Positions 5,765 to 59,503 of a stretch of DNA of 64,000 bases are shown here, piece after piece (positions within the stretch are counted from its first letter, which is position 1; each line of letters starts with the position of its first letter). The stretch lies in assembly GCA_019661945.1 (NCBI GenBank), contig JAIFWI010000001.1:6342-70341 (forward strand), written 5' to 3'. Both the position numbers and the translations under genes were made by a program. The notes beneath the pieces were generated by a model, which ran no database searches, was not told the DNA's origin, and worked only from the letters and a program-made list of their open reading frames with translations. The DNA comes from Candidatus Parcubacteria bacterium (GTDB lineage Bacteria > Patescibacteriota > Minisyncoccia > Phycocordibacterales > JAKAEA01).

Positions 5765-6798
5765 TGCAAGAAATAAACAAAGATATAGCCGGACAGATTT
5801 TGGCTGAAATTAAGCTGGCTAAGAAAATTTTAATGCATTGTCATCCGAGTCCTGATGGTGATAGTTTAGGAAGTACATTAGCAATGTCACATGTCCTTAA
5901 AGCTATGGGCAAAGAGCCTACTGTTATTAAAGGTGACTCTGATTTGCCGAAATATCTTTCAAAGCTGCCTGGATACGATACTATTGTGCTTAAGAATATC
6001 TTTGAAATAGACCTTAAAGATTTCGATCTTTTCTTGGTTCTTGATACCGGCTCACCAGATCGCGTCTCAAAGATTCAGCCTCTCACATTACCTCTGCCAA
6101 TAAAAACTATTCTTATTGACCATCATATTTCAAATCAGGGTTTCGGCGATATTAGTCTTATTTTGAGTGACTATTCCTCAACGTGTGAAATACTCTATGA
6201 TCTTTTGGAAATGTGGCAGATAGATCTTTCGCCACAAGCAGCAGTATGTCTTTTTGTAGGTATATATACCGATACAGGAGGATTCAGATATAGAACATCG
6301 AAAACTTCACCGCCAGCCGAAACTATTGGTAAGGCTGCAAAATTGGCCCATATTGCTCCGAATTATATCGATATTCTCCATTCAATGGAGAACAGCAACA
6401 CGAAAGGCAGACTGATTGCCCAGGGCCTACTTCTTCATTCAATCGAGACACATTTCAATGATAGTGTTGCTTTTGTATCAGTATCAAAAGCCGAACTTGA
6501 TGCGCATAAGATTACCCTTGATGACATATCAGGTTTGGATGTAGCCAATCAGCTAAAATCTGTCATTGGCTGGAATATGGGTATTAGTTTTATTGAGAAA
6601 GAGCCAAATTATATAGGTATAAGCTTCAGGAGCCGAGATCCTGAACGCTATGATGTTGCAAAAGTGGCTAGCTTTGTTAAGGGTGGGGGACATAAGGCTG
6701 CTGCTGGGGCTCGAATTTTGGGCACTCTCCAAGAAGCTAAGGATCAGGTGCTCAAAGCTATTGCTGAAACCTACCCGGATCTTAAGCCAGGTTTGTGA
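5764..6798 (+). CDS. nrnA: DHH/DHHA1 phosphoesterase (NrnA-like nanoRNase / pAp phosphatase)
   Basis: HCHPSPDGDSLGS (DHH motif I), DHH (IDHHISN), C-terminal GGGHKAAAGA (DHHA1). Confidence 0.8.
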   Translation: MQEINKDIAGQILAEIKLAKKILMHCHPSPDGDSLGSTLAMSHVLKAMGKEPTVIKGDSDLPKYLSKLPGYDTIVLKNIFEIDLKDFDLFLVLDTGSPDRVSKIQPLTLPLPIKTILIDHHISNQGFGDISLILSDYSSTCEILYDLLEMWQIDLSPQAAVCLFVGIYTDTGGFRYRTSKTSPPAETIGKAAKLAHIAPNYIDILHSMENSNTKGRLIAQGLLLHSIETHFNDSVAFVSVSKAELDAHKITLDDISGLDVANQLKSVIGWNMGISFIEKEPNYIGISFRSRDPERYDVAKVASFVKGGGHKAAAGARILGTLQEAKDQVLKAIAETYPDLKPGL

Positions 6799-16684: not shown

Positions 16685-16750
16685 TTGATAAAAATTAAAA
16701 AAGATGTAATGTTCACTCTGGATATACCGTTCCTTTAACCGGAGGTTGTG

Positions 16751-18283
16751 ATGAAAGCTCTCGATTTAGCGCGGGCTGAAGCCTGCACTCAGTTGGGGGA
16801 TGTCATCTACGTTCCTCACCTGCCGATGACACAAGAGTGTTATCGGTCCTTGAAGCGGGTACGTAGACAGCCGAGCATGCAGACTCTTCTCGGTAATCGA
16901 CCATGGCATGTTGCATTTTCGGAGCTTATCGGGATGTATAGGGAGCACTTTACTGAAACTCAGAGTAACCCTGTCTGGTTCGAGCGGCTCGATCCTGTGC
17001 TCAGGCGTCATTTGAGCAGTTGGTATGGGTTGTTTGGGGATATCTACGAGCCGTTGTCTATAACCCCATGTGTTCCTTTGGCTGGCTTTGGGTTCACCGT
17101 ACTCGAAGAAGGTATTGCCGAAGATGTCGTCAGGTCTCTCGGGCTTTTCCGGCTTGGGGGAATTCGACAGCTTGGCTTTCTCCATACTCCTCGGGTGACG
17201 AGTGATGCCCTTCAGGCCTACATGCCGGTGTATTCTCACACACGATATCTCCATATTATGTGTGTCTATGCCCTAGCAAATCTCATGGCTGAGAACAACC
17301 ACCTAAGCGAGCTTGAAAAGAATACCTTGCTCGTGGCGGCCCTGACCCATGATGCTCGGACTCCTGCGGGAGGAGACAGTACCAAACGTATCAACCACAC
17401 CCTCTTTGATGAAGATGCCAGCTTTGAAGCTGTTTATAAGCTGCCTGGTTGGCCCGGACTTCGAGAGCGGTATGGTTTATGCGAGAAACTGCTGTTTCGA
17501 ACAATTATGGGCGAAGGGAAACTTGGCCGGCTTCTTGATCTTGCGGATAAGGCGGCCTACATTGCCTTCGATACTGCTCGCTTTCTGGATAGTGGGACTC
17601 CCTCAGCAGCTGTGTCGGAGATTCGTACTGTTCTCAATGAAGATTCCCTAGTCTGCGGACTATGGGATGCAGCTAATGTCGAAGGGGAACAGGTCATCAT
17701 CAGTGATCCGGAACGGCTCCACCGGTTTTTGAGGCTTCGAGCAGGAATGTTCAAGGGCCTCTACTACAATCCGGCCAGTCGCTTTCTGGAAGATACGCTG
17801 GCGCGAATGCTCATCAGCTATTTGTTGGAAAAGGGCGTAGTTACTCCCGGCACACTCCTGCAGATGGGTGATGGTCATCTCGAACAACTCATTGATCAAG
17901 TAACCGGCATTCCAGGGCTTATGGCCGGAATTGTAACCCACCAAGCAACCCGGGTTGAAACTTTTCAGACATTGTCTCAAGCTGAAGCACGGGAAGCTGA
18001 ACTCGCCTTAGACCAGGGAATCATGACACACATCGAGTCAATGTTGTGGTTAACCAAGTCAGGCGCTAAAAGTTTCTTAGTACGCGGTAAGAATAAGCAG
18101 GTGGCAACATTTGCTGAAGCTTATCCGGAACAGACAGTGAAAATTGAGGAAGGTTTGAAAGATATTCCGCCGGTGCGGCTGTATGCATTCTCAATCAGGC
18201 ACTCAGGTTTGCCGAACGAGATTGTCAGACGGCTACGGAAGAGGCGTGAAAAACGAATTAAGAATTACAAGCGGAGCCACTAA
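16751..18283 (+). CDS. HD-domain phosphohydrolase, dNTP-triphosphohydrolase (dGTPase/SAMHD1)-like; GC-rich
   Basis: H...HD...D motif order: YSHTRYLHIMCVYA, LVAALTHDARTPAGGD, LLDLADKAAYIAFD; about 57% GC vs ~38% flanks; GGAGG RBS before ATG 16751. Confidence 0.5.
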   Translation: MKALDLARAEACTQLGDVIYVPHLPMTQECYRSLKRVRRQPSMQTLLGNRPWHVAFSELIGMYREHFTETQSNPVWFERLDPVLRRHLSSWYGLFGDIYEPLSITPCVPLAGFGFTVLEEGIAEDVVRSLGLFRLGGIRQLGFLHTPRVTSDALQAYMPVYSHTRYLHIMCVYALANLMAENNHLSELEKNTLLVAALTHDARTPAGGDSTKRINHTLFDEDASFEAVYKLPGWPGLRERYGLCEKLLFRTIMGEGKLGRLLDLADKAAYIAFDTARFLDSGTPSAAVSEIRTVLNEDSLVCGLWDAANVEGEQVIISDPERLHRFLRLRAGMFKGLYYNPASRFLEDTLARMLISYLLEKGVVTPGTLLQMGDGHLEQLIDQVTGIPGLMAGIVTHQATRVETFQTLSQAEAREAELALDQGIMTHIESMLWLTKSGAKSFLVRGKNKQVATFAEAYPEQTVKIEEGLKDIPPVRLYAFSIRHSGLPNEIVRRLRKRREKRIKNYKRSH

Positions 18284-33315: not shown

Positions 33316-34083
33316 ATGCTTGCTTTGATTTGTGTTAAATGCTATATTTTCCCCATGAATAACGACGAGAAGATATTGACGCCTCCCTATCTCTCTGTAA
33401 GGAAGATAGTTGAGATGATTGAATTGGTTTCAAGCAGAAACTACCCAGAGGGTATATCTACCGATTTCTTCAAGAGCAGAGGTTTTAGTTCTGCAGACGC
33501 CACGCTTGCAGTTAATACGCTAAAGTTTCTTAATCTCTTGAAAGAAGATGGCACCCCGACGGAACATATGGAAAAGATGAGAATAAAGGGCGAAGACCGC
33601 AAACCTGAATTTGAGAAAATTATACGCTTGGGTTACAAAAAACTTTTTGATACTGTAGACAGTCCACATGAACTGCCTAAAGATAAACTTGAAACTGAGT
33701 TTATTGCTGTGTACAAACTATCTGATAGAATTGTTGCATCAGCAATACCGGCATTTTATAGATTGTGTATGTATGCTGGTCTCAGAGAAGAGAAAGCAGT
33801 ATCAAAGGCTCCAATTTCAAGAGATGGGAGTGCCAAACCAGCTTTTTCTCCGCAGCCGAAAAAAGCTAATCTCAAAAATCAAGGTGTTTCTGTACGTAAT
33901 GGTTTTTCTGTGTTGCCTATTTCTGGTGGTAAATTTGAACTTCATCTTCCTGAAGAATGGAAGAATCGGCTCCTTGATGAGGAGGATGCTGAAGTGAAGT
34001 GGCGCATTGCAAGAACAGCTTTGAAAAATCTAGCAGATACGCTCAGCAAGGATTCTGATATCAAAGATACAGAGGATAATTAA
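33316..34083 (+). CDS. Hypothetical protein (255 aa)
   Basis: Uninterrupted ORF; no family recognised; followed by ccccc aaaagc ggggg hairpin. Confidence 0.45.
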   Translation: MLALICVKCYIFPMNNDEKILTPPYLSVRKIVEMIELVSSRNYPEGISTDFFKSRGFSSADATLAVNTLKFLNLLKEDGTPTEHMEKMRIKGEDRKPEFEKIIRLGYKKLFDTVDSPHELPKDKLETEFIAVYKLSDRIVASAIPAFYRLCMYAGLREEKAVSKAPISRDGSAKPAFSPQPKKANLKNQGVSVRNGFSVLPISGGKFELHLPEEWKNRLLDEEDAEVKWRIARTALKNLADTLSKDSDIKDTEDN

Positions 34084-34278
34084 GCTTATTAAAAACACAA
34101 TACCCCCAAAAGCGGGGGCATTAGCTTGATTACTCGGAGCCGTTCTACTAAAAACGGGCGGGGTCAGCGACAAACTGATATTTAAACTCGCATAGTGACT
34201 TCGGGCCCGAAGTCTTCCTAAACTACATGTAGTATGAGTAACTTGTCAAAATAGTGCCTCTCCCTTTGTGGATATTGA

Positions 34279-34358
34279 TGCGCCGGTGACGAAACAGGTA
34301 TCTGTTTTGTGAATAGGATGTCTTTCGAGATTTACGGGTTCGAATCCCGTCCGGCGCA
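34279..34358 (+). tRNA. tRNA-like element: intact 7-8 bp acceptor stem and canonical T-arm (ACGGG-TTCGAAT-CCCGT), 6-bp/4-nt D-arm-like hairpin, UUCG variable hairpin, but no canonical anticodon arm (possible pseudo-tRNA / island attachment site)
   Basis: gcgccgg...acgggttcgaatcccgt ccggcgc a; GTTCGAATC T-loop perfect; interior 47 nt cannot form standard anticodon stem-loop. Confidence 0.35.
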
Positions 34359-34442
34359 TACTTGACTTTGTGGCGTAAGTATATTGTAGCATATTTTTTG
34401 ATTTGCTGTCAATGACCTAACTTATTAAGCGTGGATAACTTG

Positions 34443-34856
34443 TTAAAGTTCTCCGCGGTTTGCCTTGCCCACAAATTCTTCTAGGGAAATAATATCTACT
34501 TTCTCACAGTTTTTTAGGTAATCATTAAGTCCACCACCAATGTAAAAATCTCTTAAAGTCCATCCGGCTCCTCCCAAAACAAGATACGCCGAGTGATACT
34601 CACCTTCATTAATTGCTTTAGCCAGTGAGATAATTTCGAAAGGTACTTTCTGTTCAGCTGTACCCCCCACCTGCTGCCACTTAAGGGAAACTAAGTATTT
34701 TTTACCTTGTTTCTCTGCAAGAGCATCAACTTTATGCTTTCTTCCTCCAGGTCGTAAACCAACTAGTACTTGGCCTTTATATGCATATCCGCCTCTCTCT
34801 AATGATGGAATTATCATCTGTTCAAGAACTCCCCCAGTACCAGTATCTCTAGGCAT
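34443..34856 (-). CDS. Small hypothetical protein, putative restriction endonuclease partner of adjacent Dam-family MTase
   Basis: 137 aa, translationally coupled (2-nt gap) downstream of MTase; possible D...E.K (KVDALAEKQGKKYLVSLKW) nuclease-like motif; no firm family call. Confidence 0.3.
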   Translation of the reverse strand: MPRDTGTGGVLEQMIIPSLERGGYAYKGQVLVGLRPGGRKHKVDALAEKQGKKYLVSLKWQQVGGTAEQKVPFEIISLAKAINEGEYHSAYLVLGGAGWTLRDFYIGGGLNDYLKNCEKVDIISLEEFVGKANRGEL

Positions 34857-34857
34857 A

Positions 34858-35691
34858 CTATAAATTTCTAGTTGCTAAAACTTCTTTTGCTTTTGTTCTA
34901 TCCCCCGTAGAATTAATCATACGTGGAGCATCAAGCAATTGTACACTAAATCCATATTTTTTGTAGAGTTTAATAATTCTATCTGTTGCTTGGTTCGAAA
35001 GTACAACAGGACCCTTATGTCTCGATAGCCATTCAGCAGTACGTATTTGGTCATCCCATGTGAATCCTCCAGTGGAATATTGCGTAAATTGTACATCATA
35101 TGGAGGATCTGCATATATAAAGTCTTCAGTTTCGGTATCAAGATTTTCAAAATCTGTATTCATAAATTGCCACTTTGAAAACAACTTTTTATATTCCTCA
35201 AAATCTTGCTTATATGTAACAGTTTTATACTTACCAAATGGTACATTAAACTCACCCTTGCTGTTGAATCTACATAATCCGTTGAAGCCAGTTCTGTTGA
35301 GATAATAAAAAAGTATAGCAGCTTCCTTACTGTTCGAATTATTGGATCGAATGTAATTATTAAAATCTGTACGATATTGGTAATAAAGTTCTTGATTGTA
35401 TTCTAGAGGGATGTTAACCTTCAGGCCCTTTCTTAGGTGTAAATAAAAATTGATTAGATGTTCATTGATATCATTTACTAACGCCCTTTTAGGTAGAAGC
35501 CCAAGGGTCACAGCAAGTCCGCCAGCAAACGGTTCAACTAAGCGTTTCTCCATGTGTGGCATCCACAACTTTATCAACTCTGGAACAAGCCATCGCTTAC
35601 CTCCCGCCCATTTTAAAGGAGGTTTTACACCGACCTCGAGTTTATACTTATCCTTAGTAAATAGTGACATTGTATATTCCATATTTTGCAT
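34858..35691 (-). CDS. DNA adenine methyltransferase, Dam/D12-class (N6-adenine, probable GATC specificity)
   Basis: Motif I LKWAGGKRWL, FxGG (EPFAGGLAV), motif IV DPPY (FIYADPPYD); 277 aa. Confidence 0.85.
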   Translation of the reverse strand: MQNMEYTMSLFTKDKYKLEVGVKPPLKWAGGKRWLVPELIKLWMPHMEKRLVEPFAGGLAVTLGLLPKRALVNDINEHLINFYLHLRKGLKVNIPLEYNQELYYQYRTDFNNYIRSNNSNSKEAAILFYYLNRTGFNGLCRFNSKGEFNVPFGKYKTVTYKQDFEEYKKLFSKWQFMNTDFENLDTETEDFIYADPPYDVQFTQYSTGGFTWDDQIRTAEWLSRHKGPVVLSNQATDRIIKLYKKYGFSVQLLDAPRMINSTGDRTKAKEVLATRNL

Positions 35692-35838
35692 TATTTAGTG
35701 CTTATAAACAACTTTACATTTTAGAATGTTGAGATGAAATTTAAATAAAGAAAGTATGAAGTTTTTAATTTGACTTACCATAAAAACATTGTAATATCTA
35801 TATAGATCAGCAGAGGGGTCCTCAGAAAAGGAGACAAT

Positions 35839-36108
35839 ATGAAAAGGTTTTTGCGGTTTTTGGTTCATGAGCCAATCTTCAAGTTCCTGCCGAAATTTCT
35901 GACCTGGGCCATGTTTGTGATGGTAGCAATACTCGTCCTTGGTGCGCTTCAGGATAATCGAGTTGCTCAAGACATCGTGGATCGACCGGGTGCGATGTTG
36001 ATGTATGTCATTGTTGCGCCAACAGGTGTTGTCTTGATTTCCGCCATTTTTGAGATGTTGTTGGTCATTCCGAAGTACCGGCGCTACTGCCGGGATGGTT
36101 ACTGCTAA
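35839..36108 (+). CDS. Small 2-TM membrane protein, paralog A (GC-rich module)
   Basis: GGAGACAAT-ATG RBS; MKRFLRFL...IPKYRRYCRDGYC; paralogous to 36611..36928. Confidence 0.5.
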   Translation: MKRFLRFLVHEPIFKFLPKFLTWAMFVMVAILVLGALQDNRVAQDIVDRPGAMLMYVIVAPTGVVLISAIFEMLLVIPKYRRYCRDGYC

Positions 36109-36125
36109 GCGAAAGGAGCTCGACA

Positions 36126-36313
36126 TGTTTCATTTGATCGCTGAGCACTGGGTGCTTACGCTATCGATCCTGTGGTTTGTGGCGGTGCTTCTGTCCATCG
36201 TAATCTGCATAGCCGTAAAGTGTCCAAAGTGCGGTTGGTGGCCAATGGGCAGAAGAGGGCATACCTTCCACTGCCTGTGGTGTGGTCATCAGTTCGAAAA
36301 AAAGACCAGTTAA
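36126..36313 (+). CDS. Small membrane protein with C-terminal zinc-ribbon (CPKC...CLWC)
   Basis: AAAGGAG RBS 7 nt upstream; TM helix then CxxC-x13-CxxC. Confidence 0.45.
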
Positions 36314-36315
36314 TC

Positions 36316-36344
36316 AAGCCCGTTCCACTGGAATGGGTTTTTTC
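36316..36344 (+). terminator. Intrinsic terminator (cccgttcc actgg aatggg + U6)
   Basis: Hairpin + TTTTTT; near-identical copy with compensatory changes at 36932-36960. Confidence 0.65.
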
Positions 36345-36447
36345 TTGTACAAATTTTGGTCTAATTCTTAATTTGACTTCCCACAGAGATATTGTAGCCT
36401 TTAGGTAGATAGCCAAAGGGGTCTTTTACAAGCCAGGAGATCGGCCT

Positions 36448-36597
36448 ATGATCCAATTGAAGCCGGGTGCAGGCAGGATGCGGGATTGCATCATAGCCGC
36501 GATTGTACTTGCGGCTGTATTGGGTACTGTAGTCTACCTTACGTACCGTCCCAACGTAGATTGGGATGAGTCCCTCATCAAGACAGTGTCCCCTTAA
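36448..36597 (+). CDS. Very small hydrophobic ORF (49 aa)
   Basis: MIQLKPGAGRMRDCIIAAIVLAAVLGTVVYLTYRP...; single TM; immediately upstream of paralog C RBS. Confidence 0.25.
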   Translation: MIQLKPGAGRMRDCIIAAIVLAAVLGTVVYLTYRPNVDWDESLIKTVSP

Positions 36598-36610
36598 AAA
36601 GGAGTCTCTG

Positions 36611-36928
36611 ATGAAGAAGTTTCTGAAGAATTTCTTTAGTTTCCTGAGGACGGAAGAGGTGCCCGATGCAATGCTGATAGTCTTGATCGCCCTGGCGGTA
36701 GTTGGAACGCTCATGCTCGTCAGTGGAAATTTGGCCGGTGACCGAGCCTCGCAGCTCATTATGAGCAACCTCGCGAGCAGCCTAATCGTTTTGTTTGGTA
36801 TCCCAATTCTCGGGGCTGCTGCGGTAGGCATTCTGATGACGCTCTTCAAGATTCCGAAGTACCTACGCTACCGCAAGGAAGACAGGCTACTGCTAGAAAG
36901 GAGTCGATTCACAAAAGAGATCAGTTAG
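36611..36928 (+). CDS. Small 2-TM membrane protein, paralog C
   Basis: AAAAGGAG RBS; MKKFLKNFF...IPKYLRYRKED; shares N-term MK(R/K)FL and ...IPKY(R/L)RY with paralog A. Confidence 0.5.
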   Translation: MKKFLKNFFSFLRTEEVPDAMLIVLIALAVVGTLMLVSGNLAGDRASQLIMSNLASSLIVLFGIPILGAAAVGILMTLFKIPKYLRYRKEDRLLLERSRFTKEIS

Positions 36929-36931
36929 TCA

Positions 36932-36960
36932 AGCCCGTTCTACCAGGATGGGTTTTTTGT
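36932..36960 (+). terminator. Intrinsic terminator (cccgttcta ccagg atggg + U6), duplicate of 36316 terminator
   Basis: agttagtcaagcccgttctaccaggatgggtttttt vs agttaatcaagcccgttccactggaatgggtttttt: stem changes are compensatory. Confidence 0.65.
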
Positions 36961-37009
36961 TTGACTAACTATTAAGAATGTTGTAATTTATTAGTAGACC
37001 GAGGGGAAT

Positions 37010-37324
37010 ATGGATTCCCTGCCTTATGTTAAGGAGAAGCTCATGAAGCGATCCGAAGACACCAGAACTTACGGAGATGAACACGGCCGGGTCATTCCCC
37101 ACCTGTTCCTGACGAATTCTGCGCTTTGGCCGCCACGGCTTGTCGAGGCGCTCAAAGACCAGATGCGTCTGACACCAGACGAATGCAAGCGGCTCAAGCT
37201 TGGAACGGCCCAGCGACAGGAGTTTGATCAACTCGTTCGGCTCTGGCACGCTTTTGGCGGAGCACAGGAAGCTGAGCAATTCATTCACACTCAATCCGGC
37301 CTAGGCGCCTTTGCCGGCGACTAG
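37010..37324 (+). CDS. Hypothetical soluble protein (104 aa, GC-rich)
   Basis: GAGGGGAAT-ATG RBS; followed by strong terminator. Confidence 0.4.
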   Translation: MDSLPYVKEKLMKRSEDTRTYGDEHGRVIPHLFLTNSALWPPRLVEALKDQMRLTPDECKRLKLGTAQRQEFDQLVRLWHAFGGAQEAEQFIHTQSGLGAFAGD

Positions 37325-37354
37325 AAGCTTTAAGGCAATATCACGAACCCGCTG

Positions 37355-37399
37355 AGCCCGTCCGCGACAACATTTGTACTGTCGCAGGCGGGTTTTTTC
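37355..37399 (+). terminator. Intrinsic terminator (12-bp GC stem + U6)
   Basis: cccgtccgcgaca acatttgtact gtcgcaggcggg tttttt. Confidence 0.7.
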
Positions 37400-37451
37400 T
37401 TTGTCGCAATTTTCTTGCAATTATTGCTTTTATGGTTAGTATTACTTCAGA

Positions 37452-37477
37452 GCACCTGTGTAGGTGCCTGTTTTTTG
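37452..37477 (+). promoter_or_regulatory. Hairpin + U-run in purL leader (gcacct gtgt aggtgc ctg UUUUUU): possible attenuator/second terminator
   Basis: Lies 35 nt upstream of purL ATG, 55 nt after the preceding strong terminator. Confidence 0.3.
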
Positions 37478-37511
37478 ACACGAACGAAAACAACAAACAA
37501 AGGAGGCACAA

Positions 37512-40500
37512 ATGCCACCAATCTATCGCTTCTATCGACAAGTGAGTGAAGATCTCGAATACGGCTTCTACGTTGAGGCCAGCGAGTTTCTGGACGCCGG
37601 AGAGTATCTCCGGCTTGAATGGATCATCGCTGAGACATTTGAACCGACGATGACTCGCCCGGATTCCATCTGGTTTCCGGCCGAAGTCATCGAAATCGGT
37701 CCGCGGCTTTCGATCGAGACTCCGTTCTCATCGAATGCAGTGGCAATTTGTCACAACGCAGGTTTGACCAAGGTCACTCGCTTCGAACGCACTCGCCGCT
37801 ATCGCCTGGCCCCGGGCCAGTCAGTGGCGGATGTGCTCGAAGCCAACCTCGATCGAATGACCGAGCAGCACTATCCCACTGGGATCGTGAGCTTTGAAAC
37901 CGGCCGTAAGCCGGAAGGTGTGCGGGAAATCGATGTCATCGGCAATCCGATCATCGCTCTCCAGAACGCCAACAAAGAGCTTGGCCTTAGCATGGATGCC
38001 AGGGATCTTGCCTATTATGAAGAACTCTTCGCTGACACTCTCGGTCGAAACCCGACCGATGTCGAGCTCCTGAAGCTCGGCAACGACAACAGTGAACATA
38101 GCCGGCACTGGCTCTTCAGAGGAATGCAGATCATCAATGGTGTACGGATGTCGAAGACTCTCTTCGAACTTGTCCAGGAACCGCTGAAGCGGCTCGGCGA
38201 CAACAATGTCAGCCTGGTCGCATTCAGAGATAATGCCGGAGTGATTAAAGGCTTTTGGACTGAGGTGCTGCTGCCGGAAGATCCGGGCCAGCCATCAGTA
38301 CTTCGCCTGACTCGAAAATATGTCCACAATACCGACACGGCCGAAACGCATAATCATCCGACTGGTGTTGCAGCTTTCCCCGGTGCTCAAACAGGTGCCG
38401 GCGGACGGATTCGCGACAACAGTGCGGTTGGATGCGGCGGTCTTCCCGGAATCGGAGTGGCCGGATATTTTGTCGGCAATCTCTTTATTCCAGGGTACCA
38501 GATACCCGGAGAGAATGTTGGACATGACATGCCGTCGACGTACGCCTCACCGCTCACGATTCTTGTCGAGGGCTCAAATGGCGTCACATCGTACGGTAAT
38601 GAATTCGGCGAACCATTGACCCTTGGCTTCACCCGAAGCTTTGGTCAAATGGTTGACGGCAAATGGCGTGAACCGCGAAAGCCGGTGCTCTACAGCGCTG
38701 GTATCGGTTCTATCTTTGATGAACACGTCAAAAAGGAAAAGGCCGAAATCGGCATGCTCATCGTGCGCATTGGCGGCCCGGCTTACCCCATTGGGGTCGG
38801 CGGCGGCAGTGCCTCAAGCATGATGCAAGGTTCGAATACCGAACAGCTTGATTATAATTCCGTTCAACGCGGCAACGCTGAGATGGAAAATCGAGCCAAT
38901 CGAGTCATTCAAGCTTGTGTGGAAATGGGCAGCGAAAATCCCATTTCGAGCATTCACGACCAAGGCGCTGGCGGTCCGAGCAATGTTTTGACGGAGCTCG
39001 TCGAACCGCTGGGCGGCAGAATCAACATTCGCAACATTGTTCTTGGCGACAAGACGATGTCAATCAGAGAAATCTGGTGCGGCGAATATCAGGAAGGCTA
39101 CGGTTTCCTTATCAGAAAAAATCGGATCGAATTTTTCCAATCGATCTGCCAACGTGAGCGGGTTAATTGTGAAATTCTCGGAGAAATCGACGGCAGCGGT
39201 AAAATCGTTGTCGAAGATCCCGATACCGGTACAACGCCGGTAGATCTCAACCTCGACCAGATCCTAACGAAGATGCCTCAAAAGACGTTTGAATCACGAC
39301 GCCAAGAACTGAAGCTCGAACCTCTGGCCCTGCCGGATGTCAGCATCAGTGAAGCAATCAAGGCCGTGTTCAAACTTCTGCAGGTTGGTTCAAAGAATTT
39401 CCTGACAAGCAAAGGTGATCGAAGTGTCGGCGGCAAGGTCGCTCAGCAACAGTGCGTCGGCATCGCTCAGATTCCGATCGCTGACTTCAGCGTCCTAGCC
39501 CAAAGTCACTTTGGTCTGACCGGTGCAGCAGGCTCGATCGGTGAACAGCCGATTAAGATGCTCATTAATCCGGCTGCCGGAGCTCGGATGGCCGTCGGTG
39601 AAATGATTCTGAACATGGCTGGTGTCCGCATTAGTAATCTCGGCGATATTCGTTGTCGGGCAAACTGGATGTGGGCGGCTAAGCTCGAGAACGAAGGCGC
39701 AAACCTCTACGATGCAGCTGTGGCCGCGACCGGTCTCTTGACCGATCTTGGTGCGGCGATTGATGGGGGTAAAGACAGCCTGACGATGGCTGCACGAGTT
39801 CATGGCCATCTGGTCATTGCGCCTGGACAATTGGTGATGCTTGGAACGGCTCCCGTGCCTAACATTACCAAGAAGGTCACCCCTGACATCAAGAAGCCGG
39901 ATGGAAGTTTCCTCTGTCTGATTGATCTCGGTGGTGGCAAAAATCGCCTCGGCGGCGGAAGCTTAGCCCAGGCTAACAACCAAATTGGCAATGAATCACC
40001 TGATGTCGAAAGTTCGCTGCTTCTCAAGAACACGTTTCTTGCGGTTCAGCAGATGATTGACGAAGGAGTGATTCTGGCCTATCACGATCGAAGCGATGGC
40101 GGTCTTTTCACTACCGTCGCCGAGATGTGCATGGCCAGCCGATGTGGCTTTGATCTTCAGGTTAATGATCACCGACATGCTCTGGCTGAACTCTTCAACG
40201 AAGAGCTCGGTGCAGTGATTGAGGTAGCACCGATACACGATAAGCGGGTGCGTGAAATCTGCGAATCGTTTGACGTGCCGATCTCACTCATTGGTGCTAC
40301 GCATGCCGACGGCAAGTGCAGCATTCGAGCGATGTCTTCTGACCATGAGTTGTGGAGTGGCAACATTTCGCTACTGCGTTTGTGGTGGGAGGAGACAAGC
40401 TCGCGGCTTGAAGCTCTGCAGTCGGATCCTGATTGTGCCCGGGCAGAATACCTTGGTCACGTTGACCTTCTGCCTGGAATCAACAGCGCTCCATCATACA

Positions 40501-41354
40501 GACTTCGATTTACACCGGCAGAAACGCCGCCAGAAATTCTCAAAGTCCGAAACAATCCCCGCGTGGCAGTATTGCGCGAGGAAGGTACGAACGGCGATCG
40601 AGAAATGCAGGCAGCATGTTTTGCCGGAGGTCTTGCCGCGTGGGACGTCACCATGAGTGACCTCATCGCAGGCAGGATCGACCTGGACGAATTCCAGGGA
40701 ATCATTTTCGCCGGTGGATTTTCCTTCATGGATGTGCTCGACAGCGCCAAGGGCTGGGCAGCAACAATTCGCTACAACACGCGTGTGCGCGAAATGTTTG
40801 CTCGCTTCTATGGCCGTAAGGACACCTTCTCACTTGGTGTCTGCAACGGTTGTCAGCTCATGGCTCTGCTTGGATTAGTTCCACTCGAAGATCTCCAGGC
40901 TGATATGCAGCCGAGATTTGTGAGGAACGAGTCCCGTCGCTTTGAGTCTCGTTGGGTTCAGGTAGAAGTTTTGCCAAGCCCGGCGATTCTCCTTCGCGGC
41001 ATGGAAGGTTCGAAACTCGGTGTCTGGGCTGCCCATGGTGAAGGCCGACTGGTATATCCAAGCCAGACGGTAGCGGATGTGGTGCGTTTGAGAAATCTTG
41101 CGCCCCTCGCCTTCCTCGATCCCCATGGCAATCAGACTGAAGAGTATCCTCATAACCCGAACGGTTCGCCGGGCGGGATTACAGCCCTCTGTTCGCATAA
41201 TGGGCGGCATCTTGCAATGATGCCTCACCCTGAACGTTGTTTTCGTTTGTGGCAGTGGCCGTGGATGCCGCCCTCATGGAGTAGCCTCAGCGCTTCTCCA
41301 TGGCTCCGGATGTTTCAGAACGCCCGCACGTGGTGTTTGGAACATTCGAAGTAG
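37512..41354 (+). CDS. purL: Phosphoribosylformylglycinamidine (FGAM) synthase, large single-chain type (PurL with fused glutaminase)
   Basis: 1280 aa; N-domain, FGAM synthetase ATP-grasp-like core, C-terminal class I GATase (GVCNGCQLMALLG catalytic Cys); GC ~56%. Confidence 0.9.
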   Translation: MPPIYRFYRQVSEDLEYGFYVEASEFLDAGEYLRLEWIIAETFEPTMTRPDSIWFPAEVIEIGPRLSIETPFSSNAVAICHNAGLTKVTRFERTRRYRLAPGQSVADVLEANLDRMTEQHYPTGIVSFETGRKPEGVREIDVIGNPIIALQNANKELGLSMDARDLAYYEELFADTLGRNPTDVELLKLGNDNSEHSRHWLFRGMQIINGVRMSKTLFELVQEPLKRLGDNNVSLVAFRDNAGVIKGFWTEVLLPEDPGQPSVLRLTRKYVHNTDTAETHNHPTGVAAFPGAQTGAGGRIRDNSAVGCGGLPGIGVAGYFVGNLFIPGYQIPGENVGHDMPSTYASPLTILVEGSNGVTSYGNEFGEPLTLGFTRSFGQMVDGKWREPRKPVLYSAGIGSIFDEHVKKEKAEIGMLIVRIGGPAYPIGVGGGSASSMMQGSNTEQLDYNSVQRGNAEMENRANRVIQACVEMGSENPISSIHDQGAGGPSNVLTELVEPLGGRINIRNIVLGDKTMSIREIWCGEYQEGYGFLIRKNRIEFFQSICQRERVNCEILGEIDGSGKIVVEDPDTGTTPVDLNLDQILTKMPQKTFESRRQELKLEPLALPDVSISEAIKAVFKLLQVGSKNFLTSKGDRSVGGKVAQQQCVGIAQIPIADFSVLAQSHFGLTGAAGSIGEQPIKMLINPAAGARMAVGEMILNMAGVRISNLGDIRCRANWMWAAKLENEGANLYDAAVAATGLLTDLGAAIDGGKDSLTMAARVHGHLVIAPGQLVMLGTAPVPNITKKVTPDIKKPDGSFLCLIDLGGGKNRLGGGSLAQANNQIGNESPDVESSLLLKNTFLAVQQMIDEGVILAYHDRSDGGLFTTVAEMCMASRCGFDLQVNDHRHALAELFNEELGAVIEVAPIHDKRVREICESFDVPISLIGATHADGKCSIRAMSSDHELWSGNISLLRLWWEETSSRLEALQSDPDCARAEYLGHVDLLPGINSAPSYRLRFTPAETPPEILKVRNNPRVAVLREEGTNGDREMQAACFAGGLAAWDVTMSDLIAGRIDLDEFQGIIFAGGFSFMDVLDSAKGWAATIRYNTRVREMFARFYGRKDTFSLGVCNGCQLMALLGLVPLEDLQADMQPRFVRNESRRFESRWVQVEVLPSPAILLRGMEGSKLGVWAAHGEGRLVYPSQTVADVVRLRNLAPLAFLDPHGNQTEEYPHNPNGSPGGITALCSHNGRHLAMMPHPERCFRLWQWPWMPPSWSSLSASPWLRMFQNARTWCLEHSK

Positions 41355-41366
41355 GCTCCGCAGCAG

Positions 41367-41395
41367 AACCCTCGCATACATGCGGGGTTTTTTAT
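41367..41395 (+). terminator. Intrinsic terminator (ccc-u-cgcau ac augcg ggg + U7)
   Basis: Hairpin with 1-nt bulge followed by TTTTTTT after purL stop. Confidence 0.65.
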
Positions 41396-41399
41396 TTGA

Positions 41400-42650
41400 C
41401 TAATGTGCTTCGCCCCAATATGGAATGCCGAGGCGTTTGAAGTCGGGATATTGTTGCGGACCGAATCTTTTATCACGACGTTTGTTTGAGAGAAGTGTGC
41501 GAGCTAGGGTGACGACATCACGGCCAAATTTTTTGGATAATAAATCTATTGTCGAAAATATCGCTCCCCTATTTTCAACTTCCTGGGTCTCGCCAAAAAG
41601 ATCTGGTTGAAATGTTGCGGCTGGAGTGATCGAGCGAAATACTACACCGGTAGCTCGGTAATCATAATGTGGACTGTAAATTTTGTGGAAGTTTTTATGA
41701 ATCTGATCGACTATATCCATCGGATTACTTGTAGCTAATGGTAATGTGACTTCAGTACTTCGGTAAGTGAATTTTTGAGTTTTAATATAGAAGTAAAGAT
41801 GTTTGGTAATAAGATAATGCCTCCGTAATCTTTTGCAGGCTCGTTCAGCATTTTTAGAAAGCTCAGCTAATAAGACTTTTGGATCTTTGGTAATTGGTTT
41901 GAAGGTGCCGGTTTTCATAATGGATTTCTGATCATCCCGCTCATCCTCATGCACTCGTAAAATACTCCGGCCATTTAATTCATGCCAAATTTCTTCATAG
42001 GGTTTGGAAAGATTTTCACGAATCCACCATTCAGGTTTTTGAATAAATTCGAGAGCGATGCGAACGCCATGTTTCATTAAGTTGGCCGAGCCGCTTGGAC
42101 CAATGCCCCAAATTTTTCCCACTAGCATTTTTTCCAGAAATTGAGGGATATCTTTTTTTTCAAGGACGGTAAATCCAGATGGCTTGTTCCATTTTGATGC
42201 CACTTTAGCCAACACTTTTGTTGGCGCCAGGCCAATGGAAAATGTCATGCCCAAGTCTCGCTCGAGGTCTCGTTTGATATTTTTTGCAGCCTGAACAGCA
42301 GCCTCACCCCTTTCCCCTCTCCTTGACAGGAGAGGGGTTAAATCCCCAAAGCACTCATCAATACTGTACTCCTCAACCATCGGCGCATACCTGCGGACTA
42401 TTGAGTACATCCTCTGGGCATAGGTGCGATAAGTATCATAATGCGACAGAGTGATAATTGCCTCTGGACAAATTTTCTTAATTTCACCGATAAGCATGCC
42501 GCGGCTAATACCCCGTTTTTTGGCCTCATATGACACAGCTAAAGCAATACTACGGTCAGCCCCTGCCACAACAGGCTTGCCTCGAAATGCTTCATTTTGA
42601 GCGATTTCACACGAGGCAAAGAAAGCATCACCATCGATGTGGAGGATCAT
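41400..42650 (-). CDS. dinB: Y-family DNA polymerase IV (DinB-like translesion polymerase)
   Basis: MILHIDGDAFFASCE (catalytic Asp), SIDECFGDLT, little-finger domain; 416 aa; last gene of LexA-box operon. Confidence 0.85.
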   Translation of the reverse strand: MILHIDGDAFFASCEIAQNEAFRGKPVVAGADRSIALAVSYEAKKRGISRGMLIGEIKKICPEAIITLSHYDTYRTYAQRMYSIVRRYAPMVEEYSIDECFGDLTPLLSRRGERGEAAVQAAKNIKRDLERDLGMTFSIGLAPTKVLAKVASKWNKPSGFTVLEKKDIPQFLEKMLVGKIWGIGPSGSANLMKHGVRIALEFIQKPEWWIRENLSKPYEEIWHELNGRSILRVHEDERDDQKSIMKTGTFKPITKDPKVLLAELSKNAERACKRLRRHYLITKHLYFYIKTQKFTYRSTEVTLPLATSNPMDIVDQIHKNFHKIYSPHYDYRATGVVFRSITPAATFQPDLFGETQEVENRGAIFSTIDLLSKKFGRDVVTLARTLLSNKRRDKRFGPQQYPDFKRLGIPYWGEAH

Positions 42651-58078: not shown

Positions 58079-59503
58079 CTACTTCTCGGCGTAGGCAAGC
58101 TTATTGCAGGCGATGTCCGCTAGAAGCGGTACATCGTAGCAGCGAGTTGCTTCTGCGAGCATCCAGATCTCCCGGCGCAGATCGCCAGAACTGGCGGGCA
58201 TAAAGAGATCATGGATATTGTCAGTGCCGATTGAAACCGGCACTCCGGCCTCAACAAGGCTAATGACCGGAACAATGGAGTTGTGGGTTGGGACAACTTC
58301 ATTGTCGAGCTGTTCCATGCTGATAGCCGCCGAAGGGCAGACAACAACCTTCAACCGGGCATTGACCATTCTGCGAATAATTCCATCACGGATGTGTTTC
58401 GGCTTGGCTGCCACCGAGATGGCATGCACAGCTGTGACGCGGCCTTGCAGACCGTGCTTCAGAGTCATATCAATGAGCTGTTCAGTTTCCCGCTCATCGG
58501 GATGATTTCGCTGGTCGACATGAGCATACACGGGCTTGCGGTATTCCCTGGCATAGGACATTACGAAATCCAAATGCTCTTCAGGGTGGGGGTTATCCCG
58601 CGACGGCAGGGCTCCCATGAAATCGGCTGGCTCAGATGCTCTCAGGTAGATCTCCCGGCTTTCCGGTTTAGTCAGTCCTTCAAGCGGCTGAATGCCGAAT
58701 TCAAGCCTGAATCTATCGGCGTATCGACGCTTCACATCGAGGGTAGCTTGGAGGACTCTGAAACCAACTGTTGTGTCGGCGTCAATGAATGTTCGACAGG
58801 TGTGAATGCCCTGAGCGATCATCCGATCAACGAAATGCGACATCCTGCGCACCAGGCCATCGTGGGTGTAGCCAAGCTTTACCTCACGGACAAGGTCCCA
58901 TTTGTGCGTCATTTTTGCATGACCGAGGGCGAAATGCTGACGACTGAGGGTACCGGCCCGATCGAGATGGGCATGATCGTTCCATAGCCCGCCGCGCTCC
59001 TTGACCAGCTCATCGAAGTAGGCCCAGAAGTCGTAATCGGCTGGCCCTACAACGCTCGGGCTCTCGGCGGCATGCTGCAACAAGCGTCGAATCGTCGCTA
59101 CTGACACATCCAGGTCGGTAAACACTGGAATGAGTCTTTCGGCAGCTAATGCTCTGATCTGCCTCGAGTCCGAACGTTGGTTGTCGTAGTCAGCATCACC
59201 GGTGAGGATGTTGATGACCAGATCGACAGTACCGTTCAGAATGAGACTCCTGGGATTTGGTTCGCAATCGTCGCTGATGCGGCAGACTGCTTCGTTCTTG
59301 ATCCCTCTCTCGTTCAGAAACCGGCTGGTGCCTTCCGTAGCGTAGAGCCTGACCCCCAGCTTGGCCAGCTCCTCAATGAGCGGTGCCAGGGCGGCCTTGT
59401 CTGCAGGACTTCCCGCGCTAATGAGGAACCCCCTAGCCTTGGTGCCATCCATCTTCATCTCGAGAGCCAGCAAGCCAAGATTCTCCTGGTTGAAATGCGT
59501 CAT
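58079..59503 (-). CDS. Fusion protein: N-terminal MGS-like domain + C-terminal amidohydrolase (cytosine-deaminase-like); GC-rich
   Basis: GFLISAGSPADKAALAPLIEELAKLGVRLYATEGTSRFL = MGS-like fold; amidohydrolase metal motifs NDHAHLD ... HAI ... IGTDNIHDLFMP. Confidence 0.55.
   Translation of the reverse strand: MTHFNQENLGLLALEMKMDGTKARGFLISAGSPADKAALAPLIEELAKLGVRLYATEGTSRFLNERGIKNEAVCRISDDCEPNPRSLILNGTVDLVINILTGDADYDNQRSDSRQIRALAAERLIPVFTDLDVSVATIRRLLQHAAESPSVVGPADYDFWAYFDELVKERGGLWNDHAHLDRAGTLSRQHFALGHAKMTHKWDLVREVKLGYTHDGLVRRMSHFVDRMIAQGIHTCRTFIDADTTVGFRVLQATLDVKRRYADRFRLEFGIQPLEGLTKPESREIYLRASEPADFMGALPSRDNPHPEEHLDFVMSYAREYRKPVYAHVDQRNHPDERETEQLIDMTLKHGLQGRVTAVHAISVAAKPKHIRDGIIRRMVNARLKVVVCPSAAISMEQLDNEVVPTHNSIVPVISLVEAGVPVSIGTDNIHDLFMPASSGDLRREIWMLAEATRCYDVPLLADIACNKLAYAEK

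What the first reader, a model, noticed from the sequence alone, without database searches (positions are those of the whole stretch)
35839..37400. Tandemly duplicated module of small 2-TM protein gene + terminator with compensatory stem changes
Paralog A (MKRFLRFL...IPKYRRYCRDGYC) and paralog C (MKKFLKNFF...IPKYLRYRKED...) share N- and C-terminal motifs and two TM helices. Each is followed 5-15 nt later by near-identical terminators: agtta(a/g)tcaagcccgttc(c/t)ac(tg/ca)g(a/g)atgggtttttt. The differences in the stems are compensatory (cc/gg to ct/ag), showing selection on the hairpin. A zinc-ribbon TM mini-protein, a 49-aa TM ORF and a 104-aa soluble protein are interleaved. All genes have consensus AAGGAG RBS and the block is about 55% GC. 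This resembles toxin-like or membrane-targeting small-protein cassettes (e.g. type I toxin or bacteriocin-immunity-like arrays), but no family could be assigned.
Basis: seen in the sequence. Interest (0 to 1): 0.5.

Follow-up and report, generated by a model that had tools for sequence, protein, structure and literature searches.

The report
Duplicated orphan small membrane-protein gene units
Upstream of purL in an uncultured Parcubacteria genome lie three small self-contained gene units, two of them old tandem copies of each other, that encode tiny membrane proteins with no relatives in any database searched; this is a tidy case of gene duplication and fusion, but nothing shows what the proteins do.

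Summary
Window 35.76-37.40 kb holds three autonomous units, each with a promoter, Shine-Dalgarno-led small ORFs and an intrinsic terminator. All three share one promoter family, TTGACT-N13/14-TTGTAR (3 sites, 0.09 expected).

- **Unit 1:** A (89 aa, two hydrophobic spans), then B (62 aa, one span plus CxxC...CxxC), then T1.
- **Unit 2:** a 49-aa single-span ORF, then C (105 aa), then T2.
- **Unit 3:** a soluble protein, most likely 93 aa rather than 104.

Units 1 and 2 are diverged tandem duplicates. In unit 2 a frameshift plus a deletion of about 169 nt removed B and fused C to B's last seven codons.

T1 and T2 differ at four positions and all four keep the pairing. All four are transitions, so "compensatory selection" is only suggestive (P = 0.013 to 0.20).

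GC is 49.7%, not 55%. GC3 (0.58-0.64) matches purL, not the host genes (0.26-0.39).

A, C and the soluble protein are singletons among billions of proteins. There are no family, structure, phage, plasmid or metagenome matches.

The toxin or immunity reading is neither shown nor excluded. Key type I features (under 70 aa, antisense RNA) are not met or not found.

Verdict: orphan small membrane-protein genes, function unknown, modest interest.

The parts
35770..35797 (+). Promoter P1: TTGACT, 16 nt, TAATAT, inside the conserved block 35762-35820
   Evidence: Promoter scan. Pattern TTGACT-N13/14-TTGTAR gives 3 hits against 0.09 expected. The block is 73% identical to P2.
35839..36108 (+). ORF A, 89 aa. 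Predicted N-in/C-in helical hairpin membrane protein that ends IPKYRRYCRDGYC. NCBI KW782_00280.
   Evidence: AlphaFold2 model has pLDDT 80 and is all-helical. AAGGAG lies 7 nt before the ATG.
36125..36313 (+). ORF B, 62 aa. N-terminal hydrophobic span plus a C-terminal CPKC...CLWC zinc-ribbon motif. Not annotated at NCBI.
   Evidence: Pfam zinc-ribbon hits are below cut-off. The exact sequence is absent from the 15-billion-protein collection. AAGGAG lies 16 nt after A's stop.
36316..36346 (+). Intrinsic terminator T1: 11-bp stem, 3-nt loop and a T-run. The stem starts 2 nt after B's stop.
   Evidence: Folds at -14.7 kcal/mol, z = -3.4.
36373..36400 (+). Promoter P2: TTGACT, 16 nt, TAGCCT, inside the conserved block 36365-36423
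36448..36597 (+). 49-aa single-span ORF (S49). It has no counterpart in unit 1 and is not annotated at NCBI.
   Evidence: AGGAG lies 9 nt before the ATG.
36611..36928 (+). ORF C, 105 aa, paralog of A. NCBI KW782_00285.
36851..36928 (+). Fusion scar inside C. It holds the IPKY block, the ancestral ...GYC* read in the +1 frame (36885-36896), the relic ribosome-binding site of B (36897-36903) and B's last seven codons (36908-36928).
   Evidence: blastn of unit 1 against unit 2; translations.
36931..36961 (+). Intrinsic terminator T2, homologous to T1. It has four differences, all of which keep the pairing.
36961..36989 (+). Promoter P3: TTGACT, 17 nt, TAATTT. It abuts T2.
37043..37324 (+). Soluble 93-aa ORF. 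The longest reading starts at 37010 and gives 104 aa (NCBI KW782_00290). Predicted helical.
   Evidence: The AlphaFold2 model has pLDDT 54, so it is low confidence.
37356..37399 (+). Intrinsic terminator T3. Its longer hairpin is unrelated to T1 and T2 apart from GGGTTTTTTCTT.
   Evidence: Folds at -22 kcal/mol, z = -5.2.
37407..37511 (+). Context: purL promoter and conserved leader (hairpin 37452-37467 plus T-run). It is not part of the duplicated cassette.
37512..41354 (+). Context: purL (large FGAM synthase). It has the same GC3-rich composition as the small ORFs.

Best explanation
**What it is.** A lineage-specific array of three autonomous transcription units sits between a type II restriction-modification pair and purL in a Candidatus Parcubacteria metagenome-assembled genome (MAG).

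**Shown**
- Each unit has a sigma-70-like promoter of one sequence family, Shine-Dalgarno-led small ORFs and an intrinsic terminator.
- Units 1 and 2 descend from one ancestral unit by tandem duplication. That ancestor ran: promoter, two-span hairpin gene, membrane-anchored zinc-ribbon gene, terminator.
- The regulatory blocks and the IPKYxRY/stop/ribosome-binding-site junction stayed 73-79% identical. The membrane-spanning cores diverged to saturation (third codon positions 36% identical).
- In unit 2 a frameshift left the ancestral ...GYC* out of frame. A deletion of about 169 nt removed the zinc-ribbon gene's body and fused C to that gene's last seven codons.
- All five small ORFs share purL's GC3 and differ from the host genes.

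**Inferred**
- The array and purL share a compositional history, either co-acquired or long co-resident, in a 40% GC genome.
- A and C insert into the cytoplasmic membrane as N-in/C-in helical hairpins. Their basic aromatic IPKYxRY tail would lie on the cytoplasmic face.
- B is a co-translated partner whose zinc ribbon is cytoplasmic.

**Most likely mode of action (weakly supported, about 0.3).** They work as small accessory or modulator subunits within the membrane. They are expressed without any visible repression, which argues against potent toxins.
For: **Anatomy**
- Promoters.
- Terminators.
- Ribosome-binding sites and ORFs.

**Duplication**
- Direct-repeat blocks of 61, 59 and 29 nt occur at a spacing of 603-615 nt.
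- blastn E-values are 5e-11, 1e-7 and 1e-6 in a 610 x 618 nt comparison.
- Protein paralogy.

**Fusion and frameshift:**

**Saturated cores:** codon-position identities are 46%, 48% and 36%.

**Topology**
- Hydrophobic spans and the charge distribution.
- Helical hairpin model at pLDDT 80.

**Composition**
- GC3 is 0.58-0.64 in the small ORFs, 0.57 in purL and 0.26-0.39 in typical genes of the window.
- purL's nearest relatives are Patescibacteria at 69% identity or less, and their purL is also GC-richer than its flanks.

**Orphan status:**

**Against a toxin:** consensus Shine-Dalgarno sequences, 5' UTRs with no significant structure and no antisense signals.
Against: - There is no expression data and no orthologue anywhere, so purifying selection on the ORFs cannot be measured.
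- A codon-usage frame test was inconclusive. For A, the antisense frame scored higher under purL- or host-trained models. This probably reflects that the antisense of hydrophobic codons looks like a soluble protein.
- The conserved-flank, saturated-core pattern could equally come from gene conversion of the flanks or from replacement of the core.
- The frameshift in C could be an assembly error in the MAG.
- The functional part (accessory membrane subunits) rests only on general knowledge of bacterial small membrane proteins and on the absence of toxin-control features.
Confidence: 0.6

Rival explanations
1. **Toxin or holin-like cassette.** A and C would be membrane-permeabilising peptides arranged like tandem type I toxin repeats or class II holins. 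B, the 93-aa protein or an undetected RNA would hold them in check.
For: - The units are tandemly repeated and the similarity extends beyond the coding sequence.
- The proteins are short membrane proteins with a C-terminal cluster of charged and bulky residues. These are traits used to discover type I toxins (PMC2887945).
- The two-span N-in/C-in topology with a charged tail matches the general description of class II holins (my own knowledge).
- A restriction-modification pair and a DUF5343/PDC-M34A candidate defence gene lie next door.
Against: - A and C are 89 and 105 aa with two spans, against under 70 aa with one span for described type I toxins.
- Strong promoters plus consensus Shine-Dalgarno sequences are present, and no significant 5' structure masks them.
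- There is no minus-strand promoter above chance, no minus-strand terminator and no Rfam sRNA.
- No holin, toxin or defence family hit appears in Pfam, PHROGs or PADLOC.
- No endolysin or phage genes are nearby, and there is no phage DNA match.
Confidence: 0.2
2. **The small ORFs are not genes.** The region would be non-coding or decayed DNA, or the long antisense ORFs (35695-36126 and 36361-36849, minus strand) would be the real genes. The hydrophobic 'proteins' would then be frame artefacts.
For: - No homologue exists anywhere.
- The antisense frame of A scores better in a codon model.
- Long antisense ORFs exist.
- B and S49 were not called by the NCBI annotation.
Against: - All five plus-strand ORFs have (A)AGGAG at 6-9 nt. 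The antisense 143-aa ORF has none.
- The promoters and terminators are on the plus strand.
- A and C align as proteins with matching hydrophobic spans, and third codon positions are the least conserved.
- The antisense translations resemble each other only where they cross the conserved promoter DNA.
- GC1/GC2/GC3 show a coding-type periodicity like purL's.
- tblastx finds no remnant of the purN, purD or purM genes that precede purL in relatives.
Confidence: 0.07
3. **Assembly chimera.** The GC-rich 35.8-41.4 kb segment (cassette plus purL) would belong to another organism and be mis-joined into this MAG contig.
For: GC and GC3 step sharply at both ends of the segment. The source is a MAG.
Against: - purL is 5-14 points GC-richer than its flanks in nearly all Patescibacteria loci examined.
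- Its closest relatives are Patescibacteria and share its leader sequence.
- The spacers inside the segment are AT-rich like the host.
- Other GC3-rich genes are scattered through the window.
- Both junctions fall in ordinary intergenic promoter or terminator DNA.
Confidence: 0.07

Closest known systems
Tandemly repeated type I toxin-antitoxin loci (ldr-rdl, ibs-sib, zorO/zorP-orzO/orzP of E. coli; Fozo et al. 2010, PMC2887945)
   Same: Units of about 0.6 kb are repeated head to tail. Similarity extends beyond the coding sequence into the regulatory DNA. The products are small membrane proteins with charged/aromatic C-terminal clusters.
   Different: The proteins are 89 and 105 aa with two spans, not under 70 aa with one. 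No antisense or divergent sRNA signal was found. The ribosome-binding sites are unmasked. The coding cores are far more diverged than the flanks. There is no sequence relationship to any known toxin family.
Class II holins and pinholins (two transmembrane domains, N-in/C-in, charged C-terminus); comparison from my own knowledge
   Same: Size range, predicted helical-hairpin topology and a basic C-terminal tail.
   Different: There is no endolysin, spanin or other phage gene nearby. There is no dual-start motif. No Pfam or PHROG holin family is hit.
Phage 'morons' (autonomous promoter-gene-terminator insertions whose GC differs from the surrounding genes; PMC3594210)
   Same: Each unit has its own promoter and terminator, and its composition deviates from the surrounding genome.
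   Different: The units are not inside a prophage. No phage proteins or phage DNA matches were found. The units are arrayed upstream of a metabolic gene (purL) that shares their composition.
Bacterial small membrane proteins that modulate larger membrane complexes (e.g. MgrB, AcrZ, KdpF, CydX); comparison from my own knowledge
   Same: They are very small membrane-integral proteins, lineage-restricted and often missed by annotation, as B and S49 were here.
   Different: Those examples are mostly single-span and are encoded next to, or regulated with, their partner. No partner is identifiable here, and there is no sequence similarity.

Membership tests
Type I toxin-antitoxin system | Toxin under about 70 aa with one transmembrane region (PMC2887945) | tested here: not met
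   A is 89 aa and C is 105 aa, each with two hydrophobic spans.
Type I toxin-antitoxin system | Tandem repetition, with similarity extending beyond the coding region | tested here: met
   The promoter, junction and terminator blocks are 73-79% identical at a period of 603-615 nt.
Type I toxin-antitoxin system | C-terminal cluster of charged, polar or bulky residues after the membrane span | tested here: met
   IPKYRRYCRDGYC in A and IPKYLRYRKED... in C.
Type I toxin-antitoxin system | Antisense or adjacent small RNA antitoxin that base-pairs with the toxin mRNA | tested here: inconclusive
   Only two weak minus-strand promoter matches were found, one of which serves the methyltransferase gene. 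That is no more than chance. There are no minus-strand terminators and no Rfam sRNA. Consensus scans cannot prove absence.
Type I toxin-antitoxin system | Toxicity when over-expressed | not testable with these tools
   This needs an experiment.
Class II holin | Small protein with two transmembrane domains, N-in/C-in, and a charged C-terminal tail | tested here: met
   Hydropathy and charge distribution. AlphaFold2 helical hairpin at pLDDT 80. This is a prediction only.
Class II holin | Encoded in a phage lysis cassette next to an endolysin | tested here: not met
   The neighbours are a restriction-modification pair, purL and a Y-family polymerase. There is no significant PHROG hit and no phage DNA match.
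Class II holin | Sequence membership of a described holin family | tested here: not met
   No Pfam or PHROG holin family is hit at E <= 1.
Phage moron | Own promoter and terminator, and GC unlike the neighbouring genes (PMC3594210) | tested here: met
Phage moron | Inserted between phage genes of a (pro)phage | tested here: not met
   No phage genes lie in the neighbourhood. Viral-contig and phage searches were empty.
Intrinsic (Rho-independent) terminator | G+C-rich hairpin directly followed by a U-run, downstream of a stop codon | tested here: met
   T1, T2 and T3 fold at -14.7, -13.5 and -22 kcal/mol (z = -3.0 to -5.2), each followed by a T6 run.
Zinc ribbon (ORF B) | Two CxxC knuckles about 13 residues apart, and a match to a curated zinc-ribbon family | tested here: inconclusive
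   CPKC-13-CLWC is visible in the sequence. The best Pfam hit, Zn_ribbon_8, scores 18.6 bits against a cut-off of 34.4. There are no significant PDB hits.
Bacteriocin/immunity gene array | A precursor peptide with a leader, plus processing or export genes nearby | tested here: not met
   No such domains were found in the flanking ORFs that were scanned (about 29.1-35.7 kb and 41.4-43.2 kb). No double-glycine leader is visible in the small ORFs. Only the flanks were scanned, not every ORF of the window.

The most novel reading that the evidence does not exclude
A and C (with B) could be the founding members of a Patescibacteria-specific class of two-span membrane-active proteins. They would be laid out like tandem type I toxin repeats but controlled by a protein (B or the 93-aa product) rather than an RNA. 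Conserved expression signals would flank fast-evolving membrane cores, as expected for molecules engaged in conflict with phages or with the episymbiont's host cell.
Probability: 0.1. Interest if true: 0.55.

Novelty: new member of a known kind. Interest (0 to 1): 0.27.

Why it matters
Candidate-phyla-radiation bacteria carry many unannotated, lineage-specific small membrane proteins, and the function of most is unknown. This locus is a clean natural example of how such genes arise and change. It shows tandem duplication of a whole promoter-gene-terminator unit, saturation of the membrane-spanning cores while the expression signals stay conserved, and creation of a new C-terminus by frameshift plus deletion-fusion. 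Two of the five ORFs (B and S49) are missing from the public annotation. If A and C proved to be membrane-active effectors, the locus would add a new family to small-protein toxin biology. As it stands it is a curiosity confined to one genome.

Tried and rejected
1. **Curated family assignment.** Pfam, NCBIfam, PHROGs and PADLOC on all five ORFs gave only sub-threshold, composition-driven hits.
2. **Word-indexed search of 5.8 billion proteins.** A, C and the 93-aa protein each found only themselves.
3. **Full HMMER profile of A+C against 1.84 billion representatives.** It found only A, C and a spurious repetitive 1269-aa translation, P0003.
4. **purL as an anchor.** I fetched 80 purL loci from other genomes and searched them with tblastn, tblastx and blastn for the cassette. 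There were no relatives. The closest genomes have purN, purD and purM upstream instead, and the cassette is not a decayed remnant of those genes.
5. **Metagenome and viral scans.** Protein patterns and the terminator DNA pattern found nothing. There was no phage or plasmid DNA similarity.
6. **Exact-sequence context look-ups.** Not on record.
7. **Structure.**
   - The 93-aa model is too poor to search (pLDDT 54).
   - The A model is a generic helical hairpin with no meaningful Foldseek match.
   - PDB sequence searches were empty.
8. **5' stabiliser hairpins after each promoter.** Rejected: the folds are no better than shuffles.
9. **Codon-model frame test.** Inconclusive.
10. **att-like direct repeats bounding the GC-rich segment.** None convincing.
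11. **Rfam at permissive threshold over the cassette.** Only chance-level hits.
Full report
**Source and setting.** ORFs A and C are identical to NCBI proteins KW782_00280 and KW782_00285 of a Candidatus Parcubacteria MAG, on a 94.8-kb contig. The window averages about 40% GC. The segment 35.8-41.4 kb is about 50-55% GC.

Genes to the left of the finding:
- a tRNA-like element found by Rfam only (34280-34358);
- a DUF5343/PDC-M34A gene (33316-34083);
- a type II restriction-modification pair on the minus strand, made of a PD-(D/E)XK nuclease (34443-34856) and a D12-class adenine methyltransferase (34858-35691).

Genes to the right:
- large single-chain purL (37512-41354; TIGR01735, 1436 bits);
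- a Y-family polymerase gene on the minus strand.

**Checking the observation.** The ORFs, the shared N- and C-terminal motifs and the two near-identical terminators are all present.
- A and C are 29% identical (E = 1e-5).
- The Smith-Waterman score of 65 was reached by 0 of 3000 full shuffles. It was reached by 10 of 3000 shuffles that keep the composition of each topological segment. The paralogy is therefore not merely hydrophobic composition.
- Both proteins have two hydrophobic spans and basic termini, which predicts an N-in/C-in topology.
- An AlphaFold2 model of A, built with C as the only other row of the alignment, is a helical hairpin at pLDDT 80.

**Corrected anatomy.** Three promoters of one family occur at 35770, 36373 and 36961. 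The family is TTGACT-N13/14-TTGTAR, that is, TTGACT, then 16-17 nt, then TAATAT, TAGCCT or TAATTT. These are the only three matches in 64 kb, against 0.09 expected. They align over about 60 nt.

| Unit | Layout |
|---|---|
| 1 | P1, A, B (62 aa; one span plus CPKC...CLWC), T1 |
| 2 | P2, S49 (49 aa; one span), C, T2 |
| 3 | P3, a soluble ORF, T3 |

- In unit 3 the AAGGAG precedes the ATG at 37043, so the soluble protein is most likely 93 aa rather than 104.
- T1 follows B, not A.
- The T1 and T2 stems start 2 nt after the stop codons.
- The block is 49.7% GC, not 55%.

**Duplication, frameshift and fusion.** blastn of unit 1 against unit 2 gives three collinear blocks:

| Block | Identity | E-value |
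|---|---|---|
| Promoter | 43/59 | 1e-7 |
| End of A + stop + ribosome-binding site of B | 46/61, with gaps | 1e-6 |
| Last 21 nt of B + terminator | 48/61 | 5e-11 |

- In unit 2 the second and third blocks are contiguous. In unit 1 they are 169 nt apart, and that gap is the body of B. Unit 2 has therefore lost B. A TCGA tetranucleotide occurs at both edges of the missing stretch in unit 1, which hints at microhomology.
- A ends ...DGYC*. At the homologous place in unit 2 the +1 frame still reads KTGYC*. The actual frame of C reads on through the relic ribosome-binding site (...LLLERSR) and ends FTKEIS*, on the codons homologous to B's FEKKTS*.
- C is therefore an A-type gene extended by a frameshift and a deletion-fusion. 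The frameshift could also be a MAG consensus error, which I could not test.
- Within the aligned coding cores, nucleotide identity is 46%, 48% and 36% at codon positions 1, 2 and 3, so they are saturated. The regulatory blocks are 73-79% identical.
- The simplest reading is an old duplication, with purifying selection on the promoter, the junction with its ribosome-binding site and the terminator, and a more recent loss of B. Gene conversion of the flanks or replacement of the core cannot be excluded.

**Terminators and 'compensatory' changes.** T1, T2 and T3 are convincing intrinsic terminators. They fold at -14.7, -13.5 and -22 kcal/mol (z = -3.0 to -5.2), and each is followed by a T-run.
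- T1 and T2 differ at four of 25 hairpin positions. One base pair changed on both sides (C-G to U-A), one changed from U-A to U-G, and one change lies in the loop.
- All 11 pairs are kept.
- In simulation, four random substitutions keep all pairs 1.3% of the time. Four random transitions do so 20% of the time, and all four observed changes are transitions.
- Selection on the hairpin is plausible, but two copies cannot show it.

**Are the ORFs real?**

Evidence for:
- Each of the five ORFs has (A)AGGAG at 6-9 nt from its start.
- The promoters and terminators are on the same strand.
- The two paralogs have matching topologies.
- Third codon positions are the least conserved.
- The GC1/GC2/GC3 pattern resembles purL's.

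Cautions:
- Long antisense ORFs exist (35695-36126 and 36361-36849).
- A codon-usage frame test was inconclusive. For A it favoured the antisense frame, as can happen for very hydrophobic proteins.
- The antisense ORFs lack ribosome-binding sites. They resemble each other only where they cross the conserved promoter DNA.

**Homology.** Nothing was found.
- Curated libraries gave only sub-threshold hits.
- The 5.8-billion-protein search returned only the query itself for A, C and the soluble protein.
- A full HMMER profile search of 1.84 billion representatives returned A, C and one spurious repetitive translation.
- B and S49 are not in the 15-billion-protein collection at all.
- Eighty purL loci from other genomes, the closest at 69% identity and all Patescibacteria, carry no relative of any cassette ORF or of its DNA. 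In the nearest of them purL is preceded by purN, purD and a purM-like gene.
- Metagenome, viral, phage and plasmid searches were empty.
- PDB sequence searches and Foldseek gave nothing.
- No close relative of this genome was available.

**Composition.**
- GC3 of A, B, S49, C and the soluble ORF is 0.58-0.64. purL is 0.57. Typical genes in the window, including the restriction-modification pair, are 0.26-0.39.
- The spacers inside the array are AT-rich (27-43%).
- purL is GC-richer than its flanks in nearly all Patescibacteria loci checked.
- The small genes therefore share purL's compositional history. Chimeric assembly is not required, though I could not test it directly.

**Mechanism.**

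Shown: three autonomous expression units, two of them paralogous, encoding predicted membrane proteins.

Inferred:
- A and C are N-in/C-in helical hairpins with a cytoplasmic, basic, aromatic IPKYxRY tail.
- B is a co-transcribed membrane-anchored zinc ribbon and a likely partner of A.
- The units carry good promoters and consensus ribosome-binding sites. Their 5' UTRs have no significant structure, and there is no antisense signal.
- I therefore consider constitutively made accessory or modulator membrane subunits somewhat more likely than toxins. This functional step is weak (about 0.3).

The toxin/holin rival (about 0.2):
- It keeps some feature-level support: tandem repeats, similarity beyond the coding sequence, a charged/bulky C-terminus (criteria in PMC2887945) and holin-like topology.
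- It fails on size, on the number of spans, on the absence of a detectable antitoxin RNA and on the absence of any phage lysis context.
- The units also look like phage morons (own promoter and terminator, deviant GC; PMC3594210), but they are not in a prophage.

**Verdict.** This is a real, neatly structured but single-genome feature: orphan small membrane-protein genes that arose by tandem duplication and were remodelled by frameshift and deletion-fusion. It is a new member of a familiar kind of locus, not a new kind of system. Interest is modest (0.27). It would rise only if expression and a membrane-active phenotype were shown.

**Seen in passing.** The purL leader next to the cassette is conserved across several Patescibacteria lineages and matches no Rfam family. 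It may deserve its own follow-up.

Noticed in passing
window 37407-37511; L001 5890-5983, L002 5953-5972, L003 5933-5992, L005, L006, L013 (~5955-5977), L015 4777-4796: The purL promoter and leader are conserved across at least 9 Patescibacteria genomes. The shared layout is: TTCTTGC -35, TA(G/A/C)TAT -10, a GCACC-loop-GGTGC hairpin, TTGTTTTTTG(A/T)CA(N)CACAAACG, an A/C-rich spacer, then AAGGAG. It is 74-78% identical to L001 and L003. Six loci match the core pattern exactly. No Rfam family matches, and there is no covariation because the stem sequence itself is conserved. This is a candidate short attenuator or protein-binding leader for purL. It is independent of the cassette, since relatives have purN upstream.
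   Followed up: partly
window 41365-41403: The purL terminator (CCCTCGCATACATGCGGGG plus a T-run) is followed by TTTTTTATTTGACTAA. This is 18/19 identical to the T2-P3 junction GGGTTTTTTGTTTGACTAA (36950-36968). The TTGACTAA overlaps the stop of the convergent Y-family polymerase gene. It may be a relic of a further promoter at the right edge of the GC-rich segment, or chance (blastn E = 0.097).
   Followed up: partly
window 34280-34358 (+): A tRNA-like element has intact acceptor and T arms but an aberrant middle. Rfam tRNA scores it at 37.7 bits, above the gathering score, yet ARAGORN does not call it. It is followed at 34362 by TTGACT-N16-TTGTAG. It could be a degenerate or unusual tRNA, or an integration-site relic beside the restriction-modification genes.
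   Followed up: no
window 33316-35691: A small defence-type cluster of host-like composition (GC3 0.28-0.34) abuts the cassette. It comprises a DUF5343 protein matching PADLOC candidate PDC-M34A (E = 1e-18), a PD-(D/E)XK_11 nuclease and a D12-class N6-adenine methyltransferase. The methyltransferase promoter (35745 to 35718, minus strand) diverges from P1.
   Followed up: partly
L001-L079 purL loci and window 37512-41354: purL is 5-14 percentage points GC-richer than its flanks in almost every Patescibacteria locus examined. In the closest relatives it sits in a purN-purL cluster, with purD and a purM-like gene on the opposite strand. In this window purL stands alone behind the small-gene array.
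   Followed up: partly
window 58079-59503 (-) and 16748-18283 (+): Other GC3-rich genes sit in the 40% GC window. One is an MGS-like plus amidohydrolase-like protein (GC3 0.63) next to a dihydroorotate-dehydrogenase-like gene. The other is a 511-aa ORF with no Pfam hit (GC3 0.51). This suggests several compositionally foreign genes, some of them for nucleotide metabolism.
   Followed up: no
window 36580-36606 vs 36879-36905: The end of S49 plus the ribosome-binding site of C (AAGACAGTGTCCCCTTAAAAAGGAGTC) is 74% identical to the frameshifted end of C plus the relic ribosome-binding site (AAGACAGGCTACTGCTAGAAAGGAGTC). S49 might therefore be a remnant of yet another A-type gene copy. The evidence is a 27-nt two-copy match and could be chance.
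   Followed up: no
window 36125-36313 and 36448-36597: ORFs B and S49 have consensus ribosome-binding sites and clear hydrophobic spans, but they are absent from the NCBI annotation. Locus tags run 00280, 00285, 00290 for A, C and the soluble ORF. Neither sequence is in the 15-billion-protein collection.
   Followed up: yes
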